Shown here: positions 1,201 to 62,385 of the stretch, one piece after another | How the letters are laid out: each line of letters starts with the position of its first letter | How positions within the stretch are numbered: position 1 is the first letter of the stretch | Assembly: GCA_030390025.1 (NCBI GenBank) | Contig: CM059432.1 | Coordinates: 10,106,001 to 10,170,000 of the forward strand | Direction of reading: 5' to 3' | From: Squalus acanthias | Lineage: Eukaryota | Length of the DNA: 64,000 nt | Notes under the pieces: model-generated | Told to the model about the DNA's origin: nothing | Databases searched by the model: none | The model's input: only the letters and a program-made list of their open reading frames with translations | Made by a program: the position numbers and the translations under genes

Positions 1201-1843
1201 TTTTTTTTATTCGTTCCTGGGATGTGGGCGTCTCTGTCAAGGCCAGCATTTATTGCCCATCGCTAATTTCCCTTGAGAAGGTGGTGGTGAGCCACCTTCT
1301 TGAACCGCTGCAGTCCGTGTGGTGAAGGTGCTCCCACAGCGCTGTTAGGGAGGGAGTTCCAGGATTTTGACCCAGCGACGATGAATGAACGGCCAATATA
1401 CTTCTAAGTCAGGATGGTGTGTGATGTGGAGGGGAACTTGGAGGTGGTGATGTTCCCATGCACCTGCTGCCCTTGTCCTTCTAGGTGGCAGAGGTCGCGG
1501 GTTTGGGAGGTGCTGCCGAAGAAGCCTTGGCGAGTTGCTGCAGTGCATCTCGTAGATGGTACACACTGCAGCCACGGTGCGCCGGTGATGGAGGGAGTGA
1601 ATGTTTAAGGTGGTGGATGGGGTGCCAATCAAGCGGGCTGCTTTGTCCTGGATGGTGTCGAGCTTCTTGAGTGTTGTTGGAGCTGCACTCATCCAGGCAA
1701 GTGGAGAGTATTCCATCACACTCCTTACTTGTGCCTTGTAGATGGTGGAAAGGCTTTGGGGAGTCAGGAGGTGAGACACTCACCGCAGAATACCTAGCCT
1801 CTGACCTGCTCTTGTTGCCACAATATTTATATGGCTGGCCCAC
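1201..1843 (-). mobile_element. LINE family B (CR1-group), 5'-truncated copy
   Basis: ORF 1345-1779 (IYKAQVRSVMEYSPLAW...LDTIQDKAARLI) and poly(A) tail; near-identical to 17911-18550. Confidence 0.9.
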
Positions 1844-5517: not shown

Positions 5518-6275
5518 TTAATTAAAATCGTTTGACAAAACATGTTTTATTTTGTTTCATTTATGAACAAATTAACTAAATTGCATTGAAATATATTTAC
5601 TTGCTTATGAAGTTATTGTGAGAAATATGTTGAACACAATTTCTTGCTCTTGGTTATGAATACAAAAAGTCTGCCAAAAATTATGTCATGAAACGAATGC
5701 CCTTTAAGTAATCTGTATCGTGGCATATTACCCTTTCTGAAGTAACATCTGTTGTCTTGTTATGGATTTCAGTGTTCCTCTCCTTCTATATTATGTGGGA
5801 AAAATTTGTCAGCTTAACGCCTCCTGTTAGCACCAGTAGATGGTATCGCCGGGGCGAGGTGAATCCAGCACCGCACGCTAAATCCCGCCCCCCATAGCGC
5901 TGCTGGTAAGAGGTATCTCCGGGAAAGTCAACGCGAGGTGGATCGTGACGTCAGTGAGTGTGCAATGCTCACTGACCGCCTGATCTGTGAAATTGATTCT
6001 CGCCACTTACCTTAGCGCCTAGAGTAAACACTGACAGGGAGAGCTGGTGTGAAGCACCAGGAAGCCAGCTCCAGGGATGTTAGTTAAAGGGGTCATCAGT
6101 AATGACCCACAGCTGTCAGGTTAGTGCAGTTTCAGTGGTTTCTTGTCAGTTTCACATACTGCAACAGTTTCATTCAGTAATTTCAAGGTTCTTTTGTATC
6201 AACTAAAAAGTAGCAACTAAAAAGTAGCTACATTTATTCTTCAAAGATTCAAACTGCTACACTTGGTAACATTAA

Positions 6276-16792: not shown

Positions 16793-17972
16793 GAGGCACA
16801 CTTCTTTTAGAAACTGAGTTGACTTGGGCCTGCCAATTGCATAGCAAATTCCACAAGTTACTAGCAAAACTACAGTCTAAATCCCTTCATTTAACTCATG
16901 GCTCAACATTTCTAGGAGTTCCTGTTTTGGCCACTATCTTTCGCACAGAATCGCTATCTCCCATCCCTAGTCCTGCCAAACATGAGCAACCTCTCTTCTG
17001 GACAGTCACTAGACGCTCTGATGGGATTGTTATCTCCCATGCCGGACCTGTTAATTGCCAAAGTGGCTTTCTTTCAATCCATTCAGCTGGAATACTCTTT
17101 CCCATTGCACATTGAACTGGCCATTGTTATTCAAGACATTTAAGAGATAATATTGCTTTAATTATTTTAATTGCAATCGGTAGAGCTTTCCCCACAACTA
17201 ATAGCAAGCTTGTGCTTCCATCATACTCCCAATAACTTTTCTCCATTCTTTATGGTTGCTGCCTCTGTGTCATGAAGAATTTATCTGAAGTCCCAAGACC
17301 AGGAGATTAGCTTGTCGTTGCAGCTGACATCCATTCTCCTGGTGATTTCAGGACTGATGTTATCACATCCAGATTGAAGTAATAGAGGACCGTTGTCAAT
17401 TTCTGCCTGAGTGACTGCTCAATTTCAATAGAGTTGTGCATAATGTCATTCTAAATCGAAGTTCCAATTGTGCATGCTATACTTCTTGGAAGCATATTAT
17501 TTAACGGTGTCAGCCATGGTTCAGTTGGTAGCACTCTCACCTCTGAATCTAGAAGGCTGTGGGTTCATTGTCCCACTCCCGATTCCTGAGCACAGAATCT
17601 AGGTTGGCACTCCCAGTGCAGTGCTGAGGGAGTGCTGCACTGTTGGAAGTGCTGTTTTTCGGATGAGAGGTTAAACCGAGGCCCCGTCTGCTCTCTCAGA
17701 TGGATGTAAAAGATCCCACAGCACTATTTCGAAGAAGAACAGGGGAGTTCTTCCTGGTGTCCTGGCCAATATTTATCCTTCAACCAACATCACTAAAACA
17801 AACAGATGATCTGGTCATTATCCCATTGCTGTTTATGGGAGCTTGCTGTGCACAAATTAACTGCCGTGTTTCCTACATTACAATAGTGACTACACTTCAA
17901 AAAAGTACTTTTTTTTTTATTCGTTCCTGGGATATAGGTGTCGCTGGCAAGGCCAGCATTTATTACCCATCC

Positions 17973-20883
17973 CTAGTTGCCCTTGAGACGGTGGTGGTGA
18001 GCCGCCTTCTTGAACCGCCGCAGTCCGTGTGGTGATGGTACTCCCACAGTGCTGTTAGGTAGGGAGTTCCAGGATTTTGACCCAGCGACGATGAAGGATC
18101 GGTGATATACTTCCAAGTCAGGATGGTGTGTGACTTGGAGGGGAACTTGGAGGTGGTGGTGTTCCCATGCGCCTGCTGCCCTTGTCCTTCTAGGTGGAAG
18201 AGGTTGCGGGTTTGGGAGGTGCTGCCGAAGAAGCCTTGGCGAGTTGCTGCAGTGCATCTTGTAGATGGTACACACTGCAGCCACGGTACGCCGGTGGTGG
18301 AGGGAGTGAATGTTTAAGGTGGTGGATGGGGGTGCCAATCAAACGGGCTGCTTTGTCCTGTATGGTGTCGAGTTTCTTGAGTGTTGTTGGAGCTGCACTC
18401 ATCCAGGCAAGTAGAGAGTATTCCATCACACTCCTTACTTGTGCCTTGTAGATGGTAGAAAGACTTTGGGGAGTCAGGAGGTGAGACACTCGCCGCAGAA
18501 TACCTAGCCTCTGACCTGCTCTTGTTGCCACAGTATTTATGTGGCTGGTCCAGTTAAGTTTCTGGTCAATGGTGACCCCCCAGGATGTTGATGGTGGGGG
18601 ATTTGGTGATTGTAATGCCATTGAATGTCAAGGGGCGGTGGTTAAAGACTCTCGCTTGTTGGAGATAGTCATTGCCTGGAAATTCTGTGGCACGAATGAT
18701 ACCTGCCACCTATCAGCCCAAGCCTGAACATCGTCCAGGTCTTGTTGCATGCGGGCATGGACTGCTTCATTATCTGAGGAGTTGTGAATGGCACTGAACA
18801 CTGTGCAGTCATCAGCGAACATCCCCATTTCTGACCTTATGTTGGAGGGAAGGTCATTGATGAAGCAGCTGAAGATGGTTGGGCCTAGGACACTGTCCTG
18901 AGGAACTCCTGCAGCGATTTCCTGGGGCTGTGATGATTGACCTTCAATCACCACAACCATCTTCTTTTGTGCTCGGCATGACTCCAGCCAGTGGAGAGTT
19001 TTCCCCCTGATTCCCATTGACTTCAGTTTTACTAGGGCTCCTTGATGCCACACTCGGTCATATGCTGCCTTGATGTCAAGGGCAGTCATTCTCAACTGAC
19101 CTCTGGAATTCAGCTCCTTTGTCCATGTTTGGACCAAGGCTGTAATGAGGTCGGGAGCAGAGTGGTCTTGGCGGAACCCAAACTGGGCATCAGTGAGCAG
19201 GTTCCGCTTAATAGCACTGTCGATGACACCTTCCATCACTTTGCTGATGATTGAGAGTAGACTGATGGGGCAGTAATTGGCCGGGTTGGATTTGTCCTGC
19301 TTTTTATGGACAGGACATACCTGGGCAGTTTTCCACATTGTCGGATAGATGCCAGTGTTGTAGCTGTACTGGAACAGCTTGGCTAGAGGCGCGGCTAGTT
19401 CTGGAGCACAAGTCTTCAGCACGATAGCCAGGATGTTGTCAGGGCCCATAGCCTTTGCTGTATCCAGTGCGCTCAGCCATTTCTTGATATCACGTGGAGT
19501 GAATCAAATTAGCTGAAGACTGGCTTCTGTGATGGTGGGGACCTCAGGAGGAGGCCGATATGGATGGTCCACTCGGCACTTCTGGCTGAAGACGGTTGCA
19601 AACGCTTCAGCCAAACGCTGGGCTCCACCATCATTGAGGATGGGGATATTATTGGAGCCTCCTCCTCCCGTTAGTTGTTTAATGGTCCACCACCATTCAC
19701 AACTGGATGTGGCAGAACTGCAGAGCTTTGATCTGATCCGTTGATTGTGGGATCGCTTAGCCCTGTCTATAGCATGCTGCTTCCGCTTTTTAGCATGCAT
19801 GTAGTCCTGTGTTGCAGCTTCCCCAGGTTGGCACCTCATTTTTAGGTACGCCTGGTGCTGCTCCTGGCATGCTCTTCTACATTCCTTATTGAATCAGGGT
19901 TGGTCCCCTGGCTTGATGGTAATGGTAGAGTGAGGGATATGCCAGGCCATGAGGTTACAGATTGTGGTGGAATACAATTCTGCTGCTGCTGATGGCCCAC
20001 AGTGCCTCATGGATGCCCAGTTTTGAGCTGTTAGATCTGTTCTGAATCTATCCCATTTAGCACGGTGGTAGTGCCACACAACACGATGGAGGGTGTCCTC
20101 TGTGTGAAGACGGGACTTTGTCTCCACAAGGATTGTGCGGTGGTCACTGCTACCAATACTGTCATGGACAGATGCATCTGCGACAGGTAGATTGGTGAGG
20201 ACGAGGTCAAGTAGGTTTTTCCCTCATGTTGGTTCTCTCACCACCTGTTGCAGGCCCAGACTGGCAGTTACGTCCTTCAGGACTCGGCAAGTAGTGCTAA
20301 CGAGCCACTCTTGGTGATGGACATTGAAGTCCCCCACCCAGAGAACATTCTGCGCCCTTGCTACTCTCAGTGCTTCGTCCAAATGGTGTTCAACATGGAG
20401 GAGTACTGACTCATCAGCTGAGGGAGGGCGGTAGGTGGTAATCAGCAGGAGGTTTCCTTGCCCATGCTTGACCTGAAGCCATGAGACTTCATGGGGTCCG
20501 GAGTCAATGTTGAGGACTCCCAGGGCCACTCCTTCCCGAGTGTATACCACTGTGCCACCACCCCTGGTGGGTCTGTCCTGCCGGAGAGACAGGACGTACC
20601 CAGGGATGGTGATGGAGGAGTTTGGGACATTGGCTGAAAGGTATGATTCTGTGAGTATGACTATGTCAGGCTGTTGATTGACTAGTCTGTGGGACTGCTC
20701 TCCCAATGTTGGCACAAGTCCCCAGATGTTGGTGAGGAGGACTTTGCAGGGTCGACTGGGCTGGGTGTGCCGTTGCCGTGTCCGTAGCCGGTGCCGAGGT
20801 CAACGCCGGGTGGTCCGTCCGGTTTTATTTTTATTATTCTTTCTTGTAGCGGTTTGTTACAACTGAGCGGCTTGCTGGGCCAT
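17973..20883 (-). pseudogene. Disrupted APE-RT polyprotein ORF of LINE family B
   Basis: ATG at 20883 (gaaATGg) is in frame with KVLLTNIWGL apart from two stops; later ORF pieces are 20224-20715, 19894-20127, 19504-19839, 18628-19449 and 17973-18338. Confidence 0.8.
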
Positions 20884-21024
20884 TTCAGAGGGCAGTTAAG
20901 AGTCAACCACATTGCTGTGGTTCTGGAGTCACATATAGACCAGACCAGGTAAGGACATTCAGATTTCCTTCCCTAAAGGACATTAGTTAATTAACTGAAT
21001 TTAAATTCCCCAGCTGCCATACTA

Positions 21025-21099
21025 GGATTTGAACTCACATCTCTGGATCATTAATTGAGGCCTCTGTATTACTAGTCCAGTAACATAACCACTCTGCTA
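21025..21099 (-). promoter_or_regulatory. Pol III type-2 internal promoter: A box TAGCAGAGTGG (21099-21089), B box GAGTTCAAATCC (21036-21025)
   Basis: Matches TRGCNNARYGG and GWTCRANNC; anticodon-like arm ctgga-ctAGTaa-t(a/c)cag lies between them. Confidence 0.75.
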
Positions 21100-21282
21100 C
21101 CGTACCTACTTCATTGGCTACAAACAAATTAGAACGTACCGAGATCATGAAAATAACTAGATAATTACAAGACTTTCTTTTTTTCTTTATTTATATATCT
21201 ATCACCATACACCTTCCAGCAGCTTTTAAGGCGTACTTTGAACATTAATTAATCCGATGCGTTCGAGCTCTTACCAAGTATA

Positions 21283-24574: not shown

Positions 24575-25011
24575 GGGGTATGGTAGCATAGTGGTTATGT
24601 TACTGGACTAGTAATCCTGAGGTCTAGACTAACTGATCTGCAAGACATGAGTTCAAATCCAACTATGGCAGCTGGGAATTTAAATTCAGTTAATTAAATA
24701 AATTTGGAATAAAAAAGCTAGTAGTAGTAATGGTGACCATGAAACTATCGGATTGCTGTAAAAACCCATCTGGTTTACTAATGTCCTTTAGGGAAGGAAA
24801 TCTGCCGTCCTTACCCGGTCTGGCCTATATGTGACTTCAGACCCACAGCAATGTGGTTGACTCTTAACTGCCCTCTGAAATGGCCTAGCAAAACACTCAG
24901 TTGTACCAAACCACTACAAAGAAGTATCATGGACTGTGGCGGTTCAAGATTAGTGGCCCACCACCTTCTCGAGGGCAATTAGGGATGGGCAATAAATGCT
25001 GACTAAAAAAA
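24575..25011 (+). mobile_element. tRNA-headed SINE that is an internally deleted form of LINE family B
   Basis: A box 24584-24594, B box 24649-24660; 24575-~24925 matches the LINE 5' end (21106-~20840); ~24928-25000 matches the LINE 3' end. Confidence 0.88.
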
Positions 25012-26164: not shown

Positions 26165-27143
26165 TTTTTTTTAAAATTCATTTATGGGATGTGGGCGTCG
26201 CTGGCAAGGCCAGCATTTATTGCCCATCCCTAATTGCTCTCGAGAAGGTGGTGGTGAGCCGCCTTCTTGAACCGCAGCAGTCCGTGTGGTGAAGGTACTC
26301 CCACGGTGCTGTTAGGGAAGGAGTTCCAGGATTTTGACCCAGCGACGATGAAGGATCGGCGATATACTTCTAAGTCAGGAAGTCCCCTCCTGGGTGCAAA
26401 GGTGAAATGAGAGAGACCACAAAATATTGCAAACTCCATTAATAAATTTATGCATAAACATATCACATATCTTCTAATAACGAATGACCCTCGTGCCTGC
26501 TATAGTTGAATAGCTGTCATTGTGTGCCAGGTGTGAGATGTGGGTGTGAGTGTTGGTAGGTAGGGATTGTTGGTGGGTGAGTGCTGGGGGTGTGGTGCTT
26601 TGGGCAGTGTGTGAAGCTTGTGGTACAGATGGTGGTATGTAGCATTTGTTGAAGCATTCAATCACCTTGACCACCCGAGTGAGGTGAATCTGCCATGAGC
26701 ACCAGCTTCAGTCCTCCGGCTCCTTTTTTTTATTCGCTTATGGGATCTGGGCGTCGCTGGCAAGGCCAGGATTTATTAGCCATGCCTAGTTGCCCTTGAG
26801 AAGGTGGTGGTGAGCCGCCTTCTTGAACTGCTGCAGTCCGTGTGGTGAAGGTACTCCCACAGTGCTGTTAGGGAGGGAGTTCCAGGATTTTGACCCAGCA
26901 ACGATGAAGGATCGGCCGATATACTTCCAAGTCAGGATGGTGTGTGACTTGGAGGGGAACTTGGAGGTGGTGGTGTTCCCCATGCGCCTGCTGCCCTTGT
27001 CCTTCTAGGTGGAAGAGGTCGCGGGCTTGGGAGGTGCTGCCGAAGAAGCCTTAGCGAGTTGCTGCATCTTGTAGATGGTACACACTGCAGCCACGGTGCG
27101 CCAGTGGTGGAGGGAGTGAATGTTTAAGGTGGTGGATGGGGGT
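26165..27143 (-). mobile_element. Two LINE family B 3' ends (26165-26381, 26722-27143) flanking an internal Harbinger fragment (26382-26721)
   Basis: Direct similarity to 17911-18335 and 13405-13775. Confidence 0.85.
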
Positions 27144-27559
27144 GCTAAGGTTGGAACGAGCATAATAACAGTGTCTGATGCCCACAACAGGTCACCAATG
27201 TTAAGTAGCTATATTTATGTAATATTAGAAATTGTTCCAGCATCATAATGCTTGAGGTGAAATCTTTAAAGATGACCATTACAGGAACGCAGAATGGTCT
27301 ACAGGATAAAACATTTATTATAAATTTTAAATAATTTCAAGTTCCTCAACCTTGTCCTCGAATCACTCCACAGCTTCTCTCCACACTATCTAGGAAATGT
27401 CCACCAGCTTATGTCCCTATAACTATAAAAGTGAATTAACTGCATATTAAATAATCACTGCACCATTTTTGTAGAATGCTAACAAATCTTTTTATACAGA
27501 AGACCTCTGCATTTTTTTTCCTGCTTCTATTTCCAACTATTGATAATGTAAGAGCAACT

Positions 27560-29675: not shown

Positions 29676-30585
29676 CTTTTTTTAATTCGTTCATGGGATG
29701 TGGGCGTCTCTGGCAAGGCCAACATTTATTGCCCATCCCTAATTGCCCTTGAGAAGGTGGTGGTGAGCCGCCTTCTTGAACCGCTGCAGTCCGTATGGCA
29801 AAGGTACTCCCACAGTGCTGTTAGGGAGGGAGTTCATTGATTTTGATCCAGCGACGATGAAGGAACGGCCGATTTATTTCCAAGTCAGGATGGTGTGTGA
29901 CTTGGAGGGGAACTTGGAGGTGGTGGTGTTCCCATGCACCTGCTGCCCTTGTCCTTCTAGGTGATAGAGGTCGTGGGTTTGGGAGGTGCTGGTACGCCAG
30001 TGGTGGAGGGAGTGAATGTTTAAGGTGGTGGATGGATGCCAATCAAGCGGGCTGCTTTGTCCTGGATGGTGTTGAGCTTCTTGAGTGTTGTTGGAGCTGC
30101 ACTCATCCAGGCAAGTGGAGAGTATTCCATCACACTCCTTACTTGTGCGTTGTAGATGGTGGAAAGACTTTGGGGAGTCAGGCGGTGAGACACTCGCCAC
30201 AGAATACCTAGCCTCTGACCTGCTCTTGTTGCCACAGTATTTATGTGGCTGGTCCAGTTGAGTTTCTGGTCAATGGTGACCCTCCAGGATGTTAATGGTG
30301 GGGGATTCGGCGATGGTAATGCCGTTGAATGTCAAGGCGCGGTGGTTAGACTCTCACTTGTTGGAGGTAGTCATTGCTGATTACCACCTACCGCCCTCCC
30401 TCAGCTGATGAACCAGTACTCCTCCATGTTGAACACCACTTGGAAGAAGCACTGAGAGTAGCAAGGGCACAGAATGTACTCTGGGTGGGGGACTTCAATG
30501 TCCATCACCAAGAGTGGCTCGGTAGCACCACGACTGACCGAGCTGGCCGAGTCCTGAAGGACATAACTGCCAGTCTGGGCCTGCC
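29676..30585. mobile_element. LINE family B copy with 5' inversion (- 29676-30377; + 30374-30585)
   Basis: 3' end on - strand joined head-to-head to an APE segment (LITTYRPP...VGDFN) on + strand. Confidence 0.82.
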
Positions 30586-47203: not shown

Positions 47204-47789
47204 CCTACTTCTTAACCTCCTGCTGCTGACAGGAGTTAACTCATCGCCGGCTGGCCATTGAATCTGGGACCTCTCTCCTCTTTCTGGCTCAGCTCTCCAC
47301 TGCTGATTAATCAGAGCAGCCAATAGTAAGCCAACTTACAATAAATGAACTTCAAGCTTGTAACAAGCTATCTACCATCAAAATGTAACACCTGGCAGAC
47401 TTGCTGCAAGTGGGCACGATTACATTAACTTTTTTCTTCAGTGACTAATTTGCTGGGGAATTAACCCAAGCCAGACGGTGTAGCCGTTTCATTGATTCCA
47501 ATCTCAGTGCAATTTGAGGTCAACTTAATGCTCATGTGGGCTATGAACACTCTCAAACGGTTATTTATTCAGGCCAATGGTGTGGGAAAAATAGGCCATC
47601 AGTCCTCGTATGAGCAACTTCTGACCCTGTTAAATCTGCAGCACACATTGTATTGCAATCCTTTGAGTACTTATGGTTTCCTAAAATACTACACAATCTC
47701 TTGAGTTGGGGTGCACCCACCCCCCCCCCCCCCCCCCCCCCCAGCCCCCGCCGCTATTTTTGTCTTCAGGTGCTCTTATATTATGTATT

Positions 47790-48085
47790 CATTCTTCAGA
47801 TGTGGGCTTCGCTGACTTTCCAGCATTTATTGCCCATCCCTAGTTGTCCTTGAGAAGGTGCTGGTGGGCCTTCTTCTTGAACCGCTGCAGTCCACGTCGT
47901 GAAGGTGCTCCCACGGTGCTGATCAGTCGGGAGTACCAGGACTTTTGACCCAGGACGCTGAAGGAACGGCGATAAAGGCCCAAGTCGGGATGGTGCGTGA
48001 CCTGGATGGGGAACTTGGAGGCGATGGTGTTCACATGCACCTTCTGCTCTTGCCCTTCTAGGTGGAAGAGGTTGTGGGTTTTGGG
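47790..48085 (-). mobile_element. LINE family B 3' end, more diverged
   Basis: Similar to 17920-18215. Confidence 0.75.
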
Positions 48086-48229
48086 ACGTGCTTTAGGACC
48101 CACCGAGATGCCAATAGCACTCAATTTTTGTGTCTAACCTTATTTGCGTAGTGATTCAAATTTCCAGGAGTGAGCTCTGCCGATTCTAGAGACTGGTAAC
48201 AGACAAAAATTGAATATAGGTCAAGGAAT

Positions 48230-58744: not shown

Positions 58745-59530
58745 TGTTCCTGGGATGTGGGCGTCGCTGGCAAGGCCAGCATTTATTGCTCATCCCTAGT
58801 TGCCCTTGAGAAGGTGGTGGTGAGCCGCCTTCTGGAACCGCTGCAGTCCGTGTGGTGAAGGTTCTCCCACAGTGCTGTTAGGGTGGGAGTTCCAGGATTT
58901 TGACCCAGTGACGATGAAGGAATGGCGATATATTTCCAAGTCAGGATGGTGTGTGACTTGGAGGGGAACTTGGAGGTGGTGGTGTTGCCATGCGTCTGCT
59001 GCCCTTGTCCTTCTAGGTGGTAGAGGTCGCGGGTTTGGGAGGTGCTGCCGAAGAAGCCTTGGTGAGTTGCTGCAGTGCATCTTGTAGATGGTACACACTG
59101 CAGCCATGGTGCGCCGGTGGTGGAGGGAGTGAATGTTTAAGGTGGTGGATGGGGTGCCAATCAAGCGGGCTGCTTTATCCTGGATGGTGTCGAGCTTCTT
59201 GAGTGTTGTTGGAGCTGCACTCACTCAGGCAAGTGGAGAATATTCCACCACACTCCTGACTTGTGCCTTGTAGATGGTGGAAAGGCTTTGGGGAGTCAGG
59301 AGGTGAGACACTCGCCGCAGAATACCCAGCCACTGACGTGCTCTTGTAGCCACAGTATTTATGTGGCTGGTCCAGTTAAGTTTCTGGTCAATGGTGACCC
59401 CCCCCAGGATGTTGATGGTGGGGGATTCGGTGATGGTAATGCCATTGAATGTCAAGGGGAGGTGGTTAGACTCTCACTTATTGGAGATAGTCATTGCCTG
59501 CACTTCTGTGGCGTGAATGTTACTTACCAC
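58745..59530 (-). mobile_element. LINE family B 3' portion
   Basis: Similar to 17920-18710. Confidence 0.9.
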
Positions 59531-60159
59531 TTAATAGTCCATATTTGAATCATGTTTGAATAATATTTTTAGGGAGGGTGCCTTTCAGTCCCACACATGA
59601 CATCACTCTTTTCCTGAATTTCATGGATGAGAAACATCAAATTTAGCAGTTGTCATTCTGGCAGGCCACATTTTACAGGTACATTGAAGTGTTTGGCATA
59701 TTCTCGCTGCACAAATGCAGAGATTTAAATGCCTGTTAAATCAATTTAAATGATGTTCAATGGTCTAATTCATCCCACACTCCATTGGGCAGCTTGCTGT
59801 GCAGACCAAAGATTGGTTGGTTGCTAAAGAACAGCAAAATGGGGGTGAACAGGATGATGAAAAAGCTTTCGTGTCTCACAGCTAGCCCTCGAGTAACACA
59901 CCACTGTAATTTCTAGGCTTGTATCACACTGAACATAGCAGCATCAATTCAATAGAAGGGACAAGAATGGTTGTGACAGAGAGAGAAGACTCGAGACTAG
60001 AGGTGACAGAGGATTTGCTTTTGGATGACAAGGTTCAGAGTGCAAGGGTGTGCGTAAGTAGAGCCTCCCCAGATATGGGGACAGGACTATTTAAGTCTGG
60101 GGCAAATTTGGGTTTTATAGGGCGAATGAAGGTTGTGAATGTCGAATGGAACCATCAGC

Positions 60160-61040
60160 AACAATAGCAACAACTTGCTTTTATACAGCGCCTTTAATGT
60201 AGTAAAAAGTCCCAAGGCGCTTCACAGGAGCGTTATCAGACAGAACTTGACACCGAGACACATAAGGAGATATTAGGACAGATGACCAAAAGAGGTAGGC
60301 TTTACGGAGCGTCTTAAAGGAGGAGAGCGAGGTAGGGAGGTGAAGAGGTTTAGAGAGGGAATTCCAGAGCTGAGGGCCGAGGCAGCTGAAGGCTTCACGG
60401 TGGCATAGTGGTTAGCACTGGTGCCTCACAGCGCCAGGGACCCGGGTTCGAATCTGGCCTCGGGTGACTGTCTGTGTGGAGTTTGCACATTCTCCCCGTG
60501 TCTGCGTGGGTTTCCTCCGGGTGCTCCGGTTTCCTCCCACAGTCCAAAAATGTGCGGGTTAGGTTGATTTGGCTATGATAAATTGACCCTTAGTGTTAGG
60601 GGGGGATTAAATATGTGGGGTTACGGGGATAGGATGGGATATGTTAGGGGGAATTAAATACGTGGGGTTATGGGGATAGGGTGGGATATGTGTCGGTGCA
60701 GGCTCGATGGGGATTCTGTGTGAGAGAGCAGGGACAGGGTACTGGATTTGGATGATCAGCCATGATCGTATTGAATGGTGGAGCAGGCTCGACGGGCCGA
60801 ATGGCCTACTCCTGCTCCTAGTTTCTATGTTTCTATGTTTCTAAGGCGCGGCCGCCAATGGCGGGGTGGAAAAAAATCGGGGATGCGCAAGTGGCCTGAA
60901 TTGGAGGAGCGCGGATAGGACTGGAGGTGGCTACAGAGACAGGGAGAGGCGAGGCCATGGAGGGATTTGAAAAGAAGAATGAGAATTTTAAAATTGAGCC
61001 AATTTAGGTCAGCGAGCACAGGGGTGATGGGTGAACGGGT
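60160..61040 (-). mobile_element. L2 3' end split by a V-SINE
   Basis: Similar to 10474-10940. Confidence 0.82.
60394..60842 (+). mobile_element. V-SINE (HE1-like) with CR1-derived tail
   Basis: A box tggcatagtgg, B box gggttcgaatc, V-domain tgtgtggagtttgcacattctccccgtgtctgcgtgggtttcctccggg; TSD aaggc. Confidence 0.88.
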
Positions 61041-61624: not shown

Positions 61625-61868
61625 GTTCCTCCAAGTTCCCCTCCAATTCACACACCATCCTGACTTGGAAATATATCACCATTCCTTCATCGTCGCCGGG
61701 TCAAAATCCTGGAACTCCCTCCCTAACAGCACTGTGGGAGTACCATCACCACACGGTCTGCAGCGGTTCAAGAAGGCGGCTCACCACCACCTTCTCGAGG
61801 GCAATTAGGGATGGGCAATAAATGCTGGCCTTGCCAGCGATGCCCACATCCCAGGAACGAATAAAAAA
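61625..61868 (+). mobile_element. LINE family B 3' end
   Basis: Ends cccacatcccaggaacgaataaaaaaa. Confidence 0.88.
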
Positions 61869-62139
61869 ATATATACACTCATCTTCTGATGCCCTGATCC
61901 CATTTAAGCTGGCAGCAGACACAGAGTGTACAGACAGATTCAATTGGCCTTTGGCCACACCCATCATTCTATTTCAATCTGGATGGCCGTGGTTAACGTT
62001 AACAGAGCAGATCCGTTCATTAGTCCAAGCCCGATTAGCTTTGGAAATCCCTCAGTTGTGCAAGGATGGATACGAAGGGAGCAGAGGGACGAAGGAAGCT
62101 GGCAATCAGCAGGTTCCCTTGCCCAAGTTTGACCTGCAG

Positions 62140-62385
62140 CCACGGTATTTCATGGGGTTCGGAGTCAATGTTGAGGACTCCCAGGGGCAAACCCCTCAGA
62201 TTGAATACCGCTGTGTCCCCCCACCTCTGGTGGATCTGACCTGCTAGTGGGACTGGGCATACCCAGGGATGGAGATGGAGGAGTCTGGGGTGTTGGCTGA
62301 TAGGTATGATTCTGCGAGTATGACTATGTCAGGCTGTTACTTGACGACTCTGTGGGGCAGCTTTCCCAACTTTAGCACCAATCCT
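62140..62385 (-). mobile_element. LINE family B endonuclease fragment, diverged
   Basis: Similar to 20455-20720. Confidence 0.75.

What the first reader, a model, noticed from the sequence alone, without database searches (positions are those of the whole stretch)
17911..21106. Candidate RNA polymerase III-driven LINE: tRNA-like head fused to a single APE-RT ORF, inserted as one unit
Seen: the element's first ~85 nt carry an A box, an anticodon-like arm (AGT loop) and a B box. About 220 nt from the start a Kozak-context ATG (20883) leads into endonuclease and RT, with no ORF1. One TSD (tactt) brackets head and body together inside a Deu-SINE, so they were retrotransposed together. Established: LINEs normally use internal Pol II promoters; tRNA A/B-box heads define SINEs; SINE bodies derived from LINE 5' UTRs are known. 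Inference: here the protein-coding element itself carries the SINE-type promoter, blurring the SINE/LINE distinction and raising the question of how an uncapped Pol III RNA would be translated. This copy is dead (stops, frameshifts).
Basis: partly seen in the sequence, partly recalled or inferred. Interest (0 to 1): 0.9.

Follow-up and report, generated by a model that had tools for sequence, protein, structure and literature searches.

The report
Shark LINE family with tRNA-like head
A large family of protein-coding jumping genes in this shark-like genome starts with the kind of tRNA-derived promoter head that normally defines short non-coding SINEs, which blurs the line between the two classes and shows how SINEs can arise from a LINE by simple deletion.

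Summary
The element is real, and its head is not a one-off chimera. It is a dead 3,196-nt non-LTR retrotransposon (window 21106..17911, minus strand) with a 5-bp target duplication, inserted in another SINE.

Its first ~85 nt carry canonical A-box and B-box motifs. In the 3.7-Gb genome, 732 places link the B box to a LINE-only word at the right distance (control 0). Of 29 copies sampled without regard to the head, 13 begin at head position 1-5. None of 49 sampled copies has another 5' sequence or an ORF1.

Short SINE-like elements share the head, 5' UTR and 3' tail. They show many different internal-deletion junctions, so they are repeated deletion products of the headed LINE. Variants shared among head-bearing copies are enriched for synonymous changes (p=0.0025), so the ORF was under selection in headed lineages.

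Instead, a 76-codon upstream ORF overlaps an AUG-less APE-RT frame.

Pol III transcription of the whole 3.3-kb unit fits the anatomy: a sharp 5' end 8 nt before the A box, no ancestral internal T4 run, and a T4 run at the 3' end in a third of tails. It is not shown. No description was found in six literature searches; Repbase and Dfam could not be searched.

The parts
17911..21106 (-). Whole headed LINE copy (3,196 nt). It is dead and lacks ~72 nt of the family's 5' UTR.
   Evidence: Other copies run ~3.22-3.26 kb from head to A-tail (L074, L075, L076, L078).
21017..21106 (-). tRNA-derived SINE-type head. A box 21099-21089, anticodon-like arm (AGT loop) 21080-21064, second similar hairpin, B box 21036-21025.
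   Evidence: motifs; shuffles 0.01. Not recognised by ARAGORN or Rfam. Fold z-score -1.1.
20833..21016 (-). 5' UTR segment shared with the short SINE-like derivatives. This copy's private ~72-nt deletion lies at about 20983/20982.
   Evidence: (the window SINE copy matches element 1-124 and 117-274, with 72 extra nt) and the alignment.
20682..20912 (-). Upstream ORF of 76 codons, starting at the ATG in CAGCAATGTGG. It overlaps the start of the APE frame, which is in the -1 frame relative to it.
   Evidence: ATG kept in 47 of 48 copies; 21 of 48 open for >=70 codons against 0 of 48 in each other frame. No Pfam hit. No canonical slippery heptamer.
20881..20883 (-). It is not the ORF start.
   Evidence: In-frame TAA at 20859-20857, present in 25 of 26 copies.
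20242..20730 (-). Apurinic/apyrimidinic-type endonuclease domain. The frame is open from 20799 and has no in-frame ATG upstream.
   Evidence: Pfam PF03372 and PF14529 (on L080); no in-frame ATG in the 58 copies listed.
18670..19302 (-). Reverse transcriptase domain.
   Evidence: Pfam PF00078, E 6.4e-28.
17954..18047 (-). 3' tail region shared with the SINE-like derivatives.
   Evidence: (element 3078-3153 matches window 24928-25001) and the junctions.
17911..17920 (-). AATAAA merging into the A-tail.
   Evidence: Genome-wide, this tail is followed by AAA at 5,757 places and by TTTT at 2,935 places.
17906..17910 (.). Target-site duplication TACTT. The second copy is at 21107-21111.
   Evidence: Empty-site reading of the host SINE, table 7.
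24577..25008 (+). An internally deleted SINE-like derivative of the same family: head + 5' UTR + 3' tail.

Best explanation
This is one dead copy of an old, abundant family of autonomous non-LTR retrotransposons. The host genome looks like a shark's.

Anatomy: a full-length member is ~3.25 kb. In order it has a tRNA-derived head with A and B boxes, a ~260-nt 5' UTR, a 76-codon upstream ORF, an overlapping AUG-less ORF of ~954 codons encoding APE endonuclease and reverse transcriptase, and a ~140-nt 3' tail ending in AATAAA or T-run plus A-tail.

Shown:
- The head is the heritable 5' terminus of the unit.
- Head and body diversified together.
- The ORF stayed under purifying selection in headed lineages.
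- The family repeatedly gave rise to short SINE-like elements by internal deletion.

[quoted passage not shown] This is near-certain for the short derivatives. For the full-length unit it is plausible, because the unit lacks internal T4 terminators and often carries one at its very end. The long RNA would then serve both as template and, by some non-canonical route (short ORF plus a -1 frame ORF2), as messenger.
For: LINKAGE OF HEAD AND BODY
- Genome search with element 1-407: about 35 copies cover 117-407 at 92-94% identity, with the head piece ~72 nt upstream. In the +-1.5 kb fetched for the 29 other listed places, at least 20 run on into the LINE body to the end of the flank.
- Exact pattern 'B-box 10-mer, 268-295 nt, LINE-only 13-mer': 732 places, reversed control 0. 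The comparable LINE-only pair gives 1,128 places.

5' ENDS
- Sample drawn with ORF-start sequence only (29 copies): starts at 1-5 in 13, at 26-78 in 4, and further in for 12.
- Second sample of 20 copies that lacked the exact pair: 6 start at <=13.
- No shared alternative upstream sequence among the 49. Only one segmental duplicate pair and four weak off-register repeat matches appeared.
- At least 17 of 26 aligned copies begin with the same GGGAAYGG after unrelated flanks.

WHOLE UNITS
- Head-to-A-tail copies L074, L075, L076 and L078 lie in different flanks.

CO-EVOLUTION AND SELECTION
- Two head types associate with body variants 0.6-1.5 kb downstream: 5 of 56 columns at p<0.02, best p 0.003.
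- Shared non-CpG variants are 30 synonymous: 43 other. Private ones are 114: 367. Fisher p = 0.0025.

DELETION DERIVATIVES
- 841 short-gap joins of the 5' UTR to the 3' tail (control 1), with many different junctions. At least two cannot derive from each other.

POL III COMPATIBILITY
- A and B boxes match the consensus motifs.
- 10 runs of T4 or longer in 40.5 kb of sense strand across 13 copies. For the 8 whose sites could be matched in other copies, none is shared; 2, both in L063, could not be matched. The same copies hold 11-20 A4 runs each.
- The terminal AAT is followed by TTTT in 2,935 of 8,692 tails.
Against: - No transcript evidence at all. No listed run is on record as RNA, and contigs cannot show starts or strand.
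- tRNA models do not recognise the head. It does not fold better than shuffles (z -1.1).
- The lack of T4 runs is not significant per copy: 0-1 observed against 1.3-2.6 expected from dinucleotide shuffles, P 0.06-0.9.
- A 3.3-kb Pol III transcript would be far longer than SINEs. The literature read here ties the 100-700 nt SINE length to weak Pol III processivity (PMC10886601, passages).
- An uncapped RNA has no known efficient route to translation, yet the ORF was under selection.
- 5' ends also cluster at 194-201 (5 copies), 260-272 (6 sampled copies, of which L037 and L055 are one segmental duplicate) and 331-349 (5 copies). These clusters could mark other start sites used by Pol II.
- All copies seen are old. 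Protein identity is 86-89% among the 70 best-scoring other copies. Only 6 of those 70 have no stop across the 624-residue query, and no open frame without a stop exceeded 819 residues.
Confidence: 0.5

Rival explanations
1. Passenger head. A SINE-type head was fused once to a LINE master, by template switching or recombination, and has since been carried along as 5' UTR. The productive full-length RNA is made by Pol II, from an internal promoter in the 5' UTR or head region or from host read-through. Only the short deletion derivatives use Pol III.
For: - The ORF was under purifying selection, which is easiest to explain with a capped, translatable mRNA.
- Discrete secondary 5'-end clusters at 194-201, 260-272 and 331-349.
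- AATAAA hexamers sit in the tail (5,757 tails).
- The T4 deficit is not significant.
- The literature read here treats LINEs as Pol II units (PMC5786205 discussion; PMC10886601 passages).
Against: - The commonest 5' end is exactly the head's first base, 8 nt before the A box, in at least 17 of 26 aligned copies. That is where a type-2 Pol III promoter would start, so a Pol II start at the same base would be a coincidence.
- Head and body co-diversified, so head-containing RNAs founded new masters again and again.
- No T4 run in the 13 near-full-length copies is shared at a matched site.
- One third of tails end in a T4 run.
Confidence: 0.33
2. Giant SINE. Headed full-length copies are non-autonomous cargo, mobilised in trans by a separate headless autonomous LINE. 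Their ORF is irrelevant.
For: - All sampled copies carry stops.
- 5 of 49 copies start at 194-201. That could be the native 5' end of a headless form.
Against: - Shared variants in head-bearing copies are enriched for synonymous changes.
- No alternative 5' UTR or ORF1 in 49 sampled copies.
- Headed starts outnumber every other class: 13 of 29 in the unbiased sample.
Confidence: 0.1
3. One-off artefact. Either a single template-switch chimera of the U6-L1 type, or a LINE that inserts site-specifically into a SINE, or a misassembly.
For: A single copy viewed alone cannot exclude this.
Against: - 732 exact linked places against a control of 0.
- 26 aligned copies have different flanks.
- 3' flanks after the A-tail are unrelated to each other and are not the remainder of a SINE.
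- The host SINE is read uninterrupted across the empty site in other runs.
Confidence: 0.01

Closest known systems
SINEs whose bodies and tails come from the 5' and 3' parts of a partner LINE (bipartite model of Okada & Hamada 1997 and Kojima 2018, PMC5786205; discussion read)
   Same: The short elements here are head + LINE 5' part + LINE 3' tail, as in SINE2-1_ACar, WALLSI or CoeSINE4. They arise by internal deletion.
   Different: - In that model a small-RNA head is added to an already deleted, Pol II-transcribed, headless LINE, and the autonomous partner has no head.
- Here the full-length protein-coding LINE itself carries the head, and deletions happened afterwards, many times.
- That paper found only the RTE and Vingi clades as donors. 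The clade of this LINE was not determined.
tRNA-derived SINEs (SINE2), including those with AATAAA plus a T-run terminator plus an A-tail (abstracts of PMC8466645 and PMC12101331 seen in search listings)
   Same: A-box/B-box head at the extreme 5' end, 3' tail shared with a LINE, and tail variants with AATAAA or a T4 run before the A-tail.
   Different: The full-length element is ~3.25 kb and encodes APE and RT. SINEs are 100-700 nt and non-coding.
U6-L1 and other small-RNA/LINE template-switch chimeras (abstracts of PMC4476161 and bioRxiv 10.1101/2025.02.02.635956 seen in listings)
   Same: A Pol III-type small-RNA sequence is fused upstream of LINE sequence within one target duplication.
   Different: Those are dead-on-arrival single events with variable LINE breakpoints. 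Here one architecture is shared by hundreds of copies, has subfamilies, and the ORF shows selection.
TRIMp3 elements (Cassandra, Helenus, Ajax): LTR retrotransposons with tRNA- or 5S-derived Pol III promoters (Kojima 2024, PMC10886601; passages read)
   Same: A retroelement class normally driven by Pol II has taken up a small-RNA Pol III promoter.
   Different: Those elements are non-autonomous, under ~1.3 kb, and of the LTR type.
LINEs that borrow a host gene's transcription: R2 in rDNA with a 5' ribozyme (cited in PMC5786205); 5S- or snRNA-gene-specific LINEs (recalled, not checked here)
   Same: The 5' end is defined by something other than a classic internal Pol II promoter.
   Different: Those depend on target-site specificity, and the host gene part is not carried along. 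Here the flanks are unrelated and the head travels with the element.

Membership tests
APE-type non-LTR retrotransposon (LINE) | Apurinic-type endonuclease and reverse transcriptase in one ORF | tested here: met
   Pfam PF03372/PF14529 and PF00078 on the window copy and on L080. L080 reads 954 codons with one stop.
APE-type non-LTR retrotransposon (LINE) | Graded 5' truncation, A-rich 3' end, short target duplication, dispersed copies | tested here: met
   TSD TACTT. TSDs of other full-length copies are short or unclear.
APE-type non-LTR retrotransposon (LINE) | Separate ORF1 (nucleic-acid-binding protein). Present in many clades but not all. | tested here: not met
   Only a 76-codon upstream ORF without a Pfam match. 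No other upstream sequence in 49 copies.
LINE clade (RTE, Vingi, CR1/L2/Jockey-like ...) | Placement in an RT phylogeny with reference elements | not testable with these tools
   No Repbase or Dfam references are held. The protein search gave only unnamed relatives at <=39% identity outside sharks. The Atlas gave generic names. RT motifs recall the Jockey/CR1 group, but that is recall only.
tRNA-derived SINE (SINE2) | 5' head derived from a tRNA, with A and B boxes | tested here: inconclusive
   Both boxes match the consensus motifs with ~47-nt spacing, and there is an anticodon-like arm. ARAGORN and Rfam tRNA models give no hit.
tRNA-derived SINE (SINE2) | Short (100-700 nt) and non-coding | tested here: not met
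   The full-length unit is ~3.25 kb and coding. The deletion derivatives do meet this (~430 nt).
tRNA-derived SINE (SINE2) | Transcribed by RNA polymerase III | not testable with these tools
   No run is on record as RNA. Contigs show no starts.
Template-switch small-RNA/LINE chimera | Unique event, variable LINE breakpoint, no propagation | tested here: not met
   732 linked places, 26 aligned copies with the same architecture, and subfamily linkage.
Bipartite-LINE-derived SINE system (Kojima 2018) | SINE body equals the LINE 5' part and SINE tail equals the LINE 3' part | tested here: met
Bipartite-LINE-derived SINE system (Kojima 2018) | The autonomous partner is headless; the head is added to the deleted derivative | tested here: not met
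   The autonomous-length partner carries the head.

The most novel reading that the evidence does not exclude
An autonomous LINE lineage that is itself a Pol III unit: an 'autonomous SINE'.
- A tRNA-derived internal promoter starts a ~3.3-kb terminator-free transcript.
- The transcript ends at its own terminal T-run or is polyadenylated.
- It is translated without a cap, via a short upstream ORF and an AUG-less -1 frame ORF2.
- It is copied in cis.
- It sheds true SINEs whenever its coding part is deleted.
Probability: 0.35. Interest if true: 0.92.

Novelty: new variant of a known kind. Interest (0 to 1): 0.78.

Why it matters
Textbook and recent specialist accounts separate Pol II-driven, coding LINEs from Pol III-driven, non-coding SINEs. 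The literature read here says that SINEs cannot encode a protein (PMC5786205, discussion) and that Pol III limits element length (PMC10886601, passages).

Here a full-length coding LINE carries the SINE head as its inherited 5' end. It also visibly spawns SINE-like elements by deletion.

That gives a concrete, testable route for SINE birth: head first, deletion later. This is the reverse order of the current bipartite-LINE model.

If the head does drive the whole unit, three open questions become directly testable on a natural system:
- how long a Pol III transcript can be;
- whether such RNA can be translated;
- how cis-preference would work on it.

Even if Pol II makes the long RNA, the family shows that a Pol III head and a LINE promoter or 5' UTR can coexist for a long evolutionary time. 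The current model doubted this.

Tried and rejected
DETECTION TOOLS THAT GAVE NOTHING
- ARAGORN on the window: 0 genes.
- Rfam at gathering threshold on the window, and at E<=1 on four full-length copies: no tRNA or SINE family.
- Folding the head: z -1.1, no cloverleaf and no acceptor stem. I therefore dropped the idea that RNase P processing of a tRNA-like fold defines the 5' end.

EXPRESSION
- No RNA holder was listed.
- The four runs laid are contigs whose 'RNA?' label is a guess. They show that the family and the SINE-type joins occur in four coded organisms. They show nothing about expression, and no listed piece bridges the head-ORF boundary.

STATISTICS THAT FELL SHORT
- T4-run depletion against dinucleotide shuffles is not significant per copy.

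TRANSLATION MECHANISM
- A search for a -1 slippery heptamer in the ORF overlap found none.
- I considered a covariation between the stop at upstream-ORF codon 20 and the second ATG, then dropped it. The counts did not differ (read off).

RELATEDNESS TO KNOWN SINE FAMILIES
- MetaSINE kinship was considered because those heads are also Thr-like. The one MetaSINE head printed in that paper's supplement (BivaMeta-SINE1) looks unlike this head by eye.
- HE1/V-SINE kinship was considered from memory. The V-SINE-like copies in the window (for example at 60401) have a different sequence.

CLADE AND EARLIER FINDINGS
- Clade assignment through the protein search and the ESM Atlas gave no clade names.
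- Earlier findings of this scan: nothing returned.

LIMITS ON DATA
The loci could not be cut out. So only 13 near-full-length copies were examined end to end.
- Repbase and Dfam cannot be searched here.
- Ogiwara et al. 1999 (HE1/HER1) was seen only as a reference and a table row in PMC3747384.
Full report
WHAT IS AT THE COORDINATES

On the minus strand, window 21106..17911 holds a 3,196-nt element.
- Its first 82 nt carry TAGCAGAGTGG (matches the A-box consensus TRGCNNAGTGG), a 5-bp stem with a 7-nt loop holding AGT, a second similar hairpin, and GAGTTCAAATCC (matches the B-box pattern GWTCRANNC).
- A composite A-box/B-box pattern occurs 3 times in the 64-kb window, against a mean of 0.01 in 200 shuffles. 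The hits are this head, a short relative at 24584, and an unrelated SINE at 60401.
- Neither ARAGORN nor Rfam scores the head as a tRNA. It does not fold better than shuffles. 'tRNA-derived' therefore rests on motifs, as it does for many SINEs.
- Downstream, Pfam finds an APE-type endonuclease and a reverse transcriptase in one frame. That frame is broken by four stops and shifts to another reading frame near its 3' end.
- The unit ends in AATAAA plus an A-run and is flanked by TACTT on both sides. Contigs from four sequencing runs read the host SINE straight through the empty site (table 7). Head and body therefore arrived together.

THE HEAD IS A FAMILY FEATURE

The window lies in a 3.7-Gb genome that can be searched.

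Searching with element 1-407:
- About 35 copies match 117-407 at 92-94% identity, with the head piece ~72 nt further upstream. The window copy has a private 72-nt deletion in its 5' UTR.
- In the flanks fetched, at least 20 of the 29 other loci run on into the LINE body to the end of the flank, ~1.8 kb.

A sample not biased toward the head, drawn with ORF-start sequence only (element 282-707), gave 29 other copies. Their 5' ends, measured against a natural full-length copy, are:
- positions 1-5 in 13 copies;
- 26-78 in 4;
- 148-210 in 3;
- 260-271 in 5 (two of these are one segmental duplicate);
- 331-349 in 4.

Genome-wide exact patterns:
- A B-box word is linked to a LINE-only word at 732 places, control 0.
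- A LINE-only pair of similar span gives 1,128 places.
- On contig C1, 29 of the first 100 LINE places have the exact head pair. I matched the coordinate lists by hand.
- Of the first 20 places without the exact pair, 6 still start at <=13 and 4 at 40-89.

Among all 49 sampled copies, the upstream flanks share nothing except one duplicate pair and four weak, off-register repeat matches. I found no alternative 5' UTR and no ORF1.

Four copies run from head to A-tail (L074, L075, L076, L078; ~3.22-3.26 kb) in unrelated flanks. The 3' flanks are not the rest of a SINE, which rules out site-specific insertion into a SINE. At least 17 of 26 aligned copies begin with the same GGGAAYGG, 8 nt before the A box.

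CODING ARRANGEMENT

It is followed after 8 codons by a TAA that 25 of 26 copies share, and by TAG at codon 3 in 17 of 26.

The APE frame is open for at most ~105 nt upstream of the first conserved endonuclease residues. It holds no ATG in any of the 58 copies listed.

In the frame one base downstream, an ATG (window 20912) is kept in 47 of 48 copies. It opens a 76-codon ORF that is intact in 21 of 48, against 0 of 48 for each other frame. It ends at a common stop inside the endonuclease region. It has no Pfam match. The overlap holds no canonical slippery heptamer.

How ORF2 is reached is unexplained. Frameshifting or reinitiation from the short ORF are the obvious candidates (inference).

The best-preserved copy I read, L080, has 954 codons with a single stop.

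Among the 70 best-scoring other copies, protein identity is 86-89%. Six have no stop across the 624-residue query, and the longest stop-free open frame reported is 819 residues. The family is old here and probably inactive.

HEAD AND BODY TRAVELLED TOGETHER UNDER SELECTION

The heads fall into two main types, with 13 and 7 of 26 copies. Head type associates with variants 0.6-1.5 kb downstream: 5 of 56 informative columns at p<0.02, best p 0.003. The sample is small and no single column survives Bonferroni correction.

In 1.5 kb of ORF from the 26 head-bearing copies:
- non-CpG variants shared by at least 4 copies are 30 synonymous : 43 other;
- private singletons are 114 : 367;
- Fisher p = 0.0025.

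Changes that occurred in master lineages were therefore filtered for protein function. This argues against the headed copies being mere cargo.

THE SHORT ELEMENTS ARE DELETION PRODUCTS

The window holds a ~430-nt relative (24577-25008) made of head, 5' UTR (with the 72 nt) and LINE 3' tail.

Genome-wide, a short-gap pattern joining the 5' UTR to the tail occurs 841 times, control 1. The 100 joins listed show many different junctions. Some keep more 5' LINE sequence and others keep more 3' LINE sequence, so at least two cannot derive from each other.

This fits repeated internal deletion of a headed parent. It is the reverse order of the published model, in which a head is added to an already deleted headless LINE (PMC5786205, discussion read).

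IS IT A POL III UNIT?

For:
- canonical A and B boxes and a sharp 5' end just upstream of the A box;
- 10 runs of T4 or longer in 40.5 kb of sense strand from 13 copies, none of them shared at the 8 sites that could be matched in other copies, against 11-20 A4 runs per copy;
- a terminal T4 run in 2,935 of 8,692 tails, the rest ending in AATAAA. This layout resembles the polyadenylated class of SINEs (abstracts only).

Against:
- the T4 deficit is within chance per copy;
- no expression data exist;
- the length is several-fold beyond known Pol III-driven elements;
- a selected ORF implies efficient translation;
- secondary 5'-end clusters at 194-201, 260-272 and 331-349 could be Pol II starts or truncation hot spots.

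I put the full 'Pol III drives the whole LINE' reading at about 0.35-0.4. I put the structural conclusions at about 0.9.

DISTRIBUTION AND IDENTITY

Close protein matches (66-84% identity) are LINE fragments embedded in gene models of Heptranchias perlo, Heterodontus francisci and Pristiophorus japonicus. Relatives outside sharks reach at most 39%. Four coded organisms' runs hold the family. The LINE clade could not be determined with the tools at hand.

PRIOR KNOWLEDGE

The six literature searches that ran and the texts read turned up no LINE with a small-RNA head. The texts were:
- PMC5786205: outline, passages and discussion;
- PMC10886601, PMC3747384, PMC4824008 (plus one supplement) and PMC11481361: passages;
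- PMC5499810: outline and abstract only.

The authors read state that LINEs are Pol II units and that SINEs cannot encode protein.

Limits: Repbase, Dfam and SINEBase are not searchable here, subscription papers are missing, and Ogiwara 1999 was not read.

VERDICT

The structural interpretation is upheld and generalised. The promoter function is open. The start codon is wrong.

Noticed in passing
window 24577-25008 (+): SINE-like internally deleted member of the same family. Its 3' end stops ~15 nt after the upstream AATAAA of the LINE tail and then has an A-run, about 43 nt short of the LINE's own end. Whether this shorter tail is typical of the short elements was not checked.
   Followed up: partly
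window 1201-1842 (-), 26165-26380 (-), 26724-27148 (-), 29677-30377 (-), 30375-30584 (+), 47786-48092 (-), 58746-59541 (-), 61628-61869 (+), 62080-62384 (-): Nine further 5'-truncated or fragmentary copies of the same LINE within 64 kb. The family is very abundant: the protein search had 369,607 first-look candidates genome-wide.
   Followed up: partly
family coordinates 194-201, 260-272 and 331-349 of the 5' region (loci L086, L092, L094, L096, L100 and others): The 5' ends of truncated copies are clustered rather than uniform. The 194-201 cluster coincides with the 3' edge of the window copy's private 72-nt deletion. The 260-272 cluster sits at the upstream ORF's ATG. These could be alternative start sites, a former headless 5' end, or truncation hot spots.
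   Followed up: partly
window 20682-20912 (-) and homologous sites: The APE-RT frame has no AUG. It overlaps a conserved 76-codon upstream ORF in the +1 register (ORF2 is -1 relative to it). No canonical slippery site was found.
   Followed up: partly
3' ends genome-wide: Tail dimorphism. The same 16-nt tail word is followed by TTTT at 2,935 places and by AAA at 5,757 places.
   Followed up: partly
window 60401-60560 (+): An unrelated tRNA-headed SINE with A and B boxes, followed by a stretch that I recall as the V-domain type. The label comes from memory and was not tested.
   Followed up: no
proteins P0001, P0031, P0038, P0043, P0049, P0074: Public gene models of three shark species carry 66-84%-identical pieces of this LINE's ORF. 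Examples are an 'aldo-keto reductase family 1 member B1-like' and a 'probable G-protein coupled receptor 139'. This is likely transposon sequence annotated as exons.
   Followed up: no
loci L037 and L055 (same contig, ~40 kb apart): Two copies with 100% identical 250-nt upstream flanks: a segmental duplication, not two insertions.
   Followed up: yes
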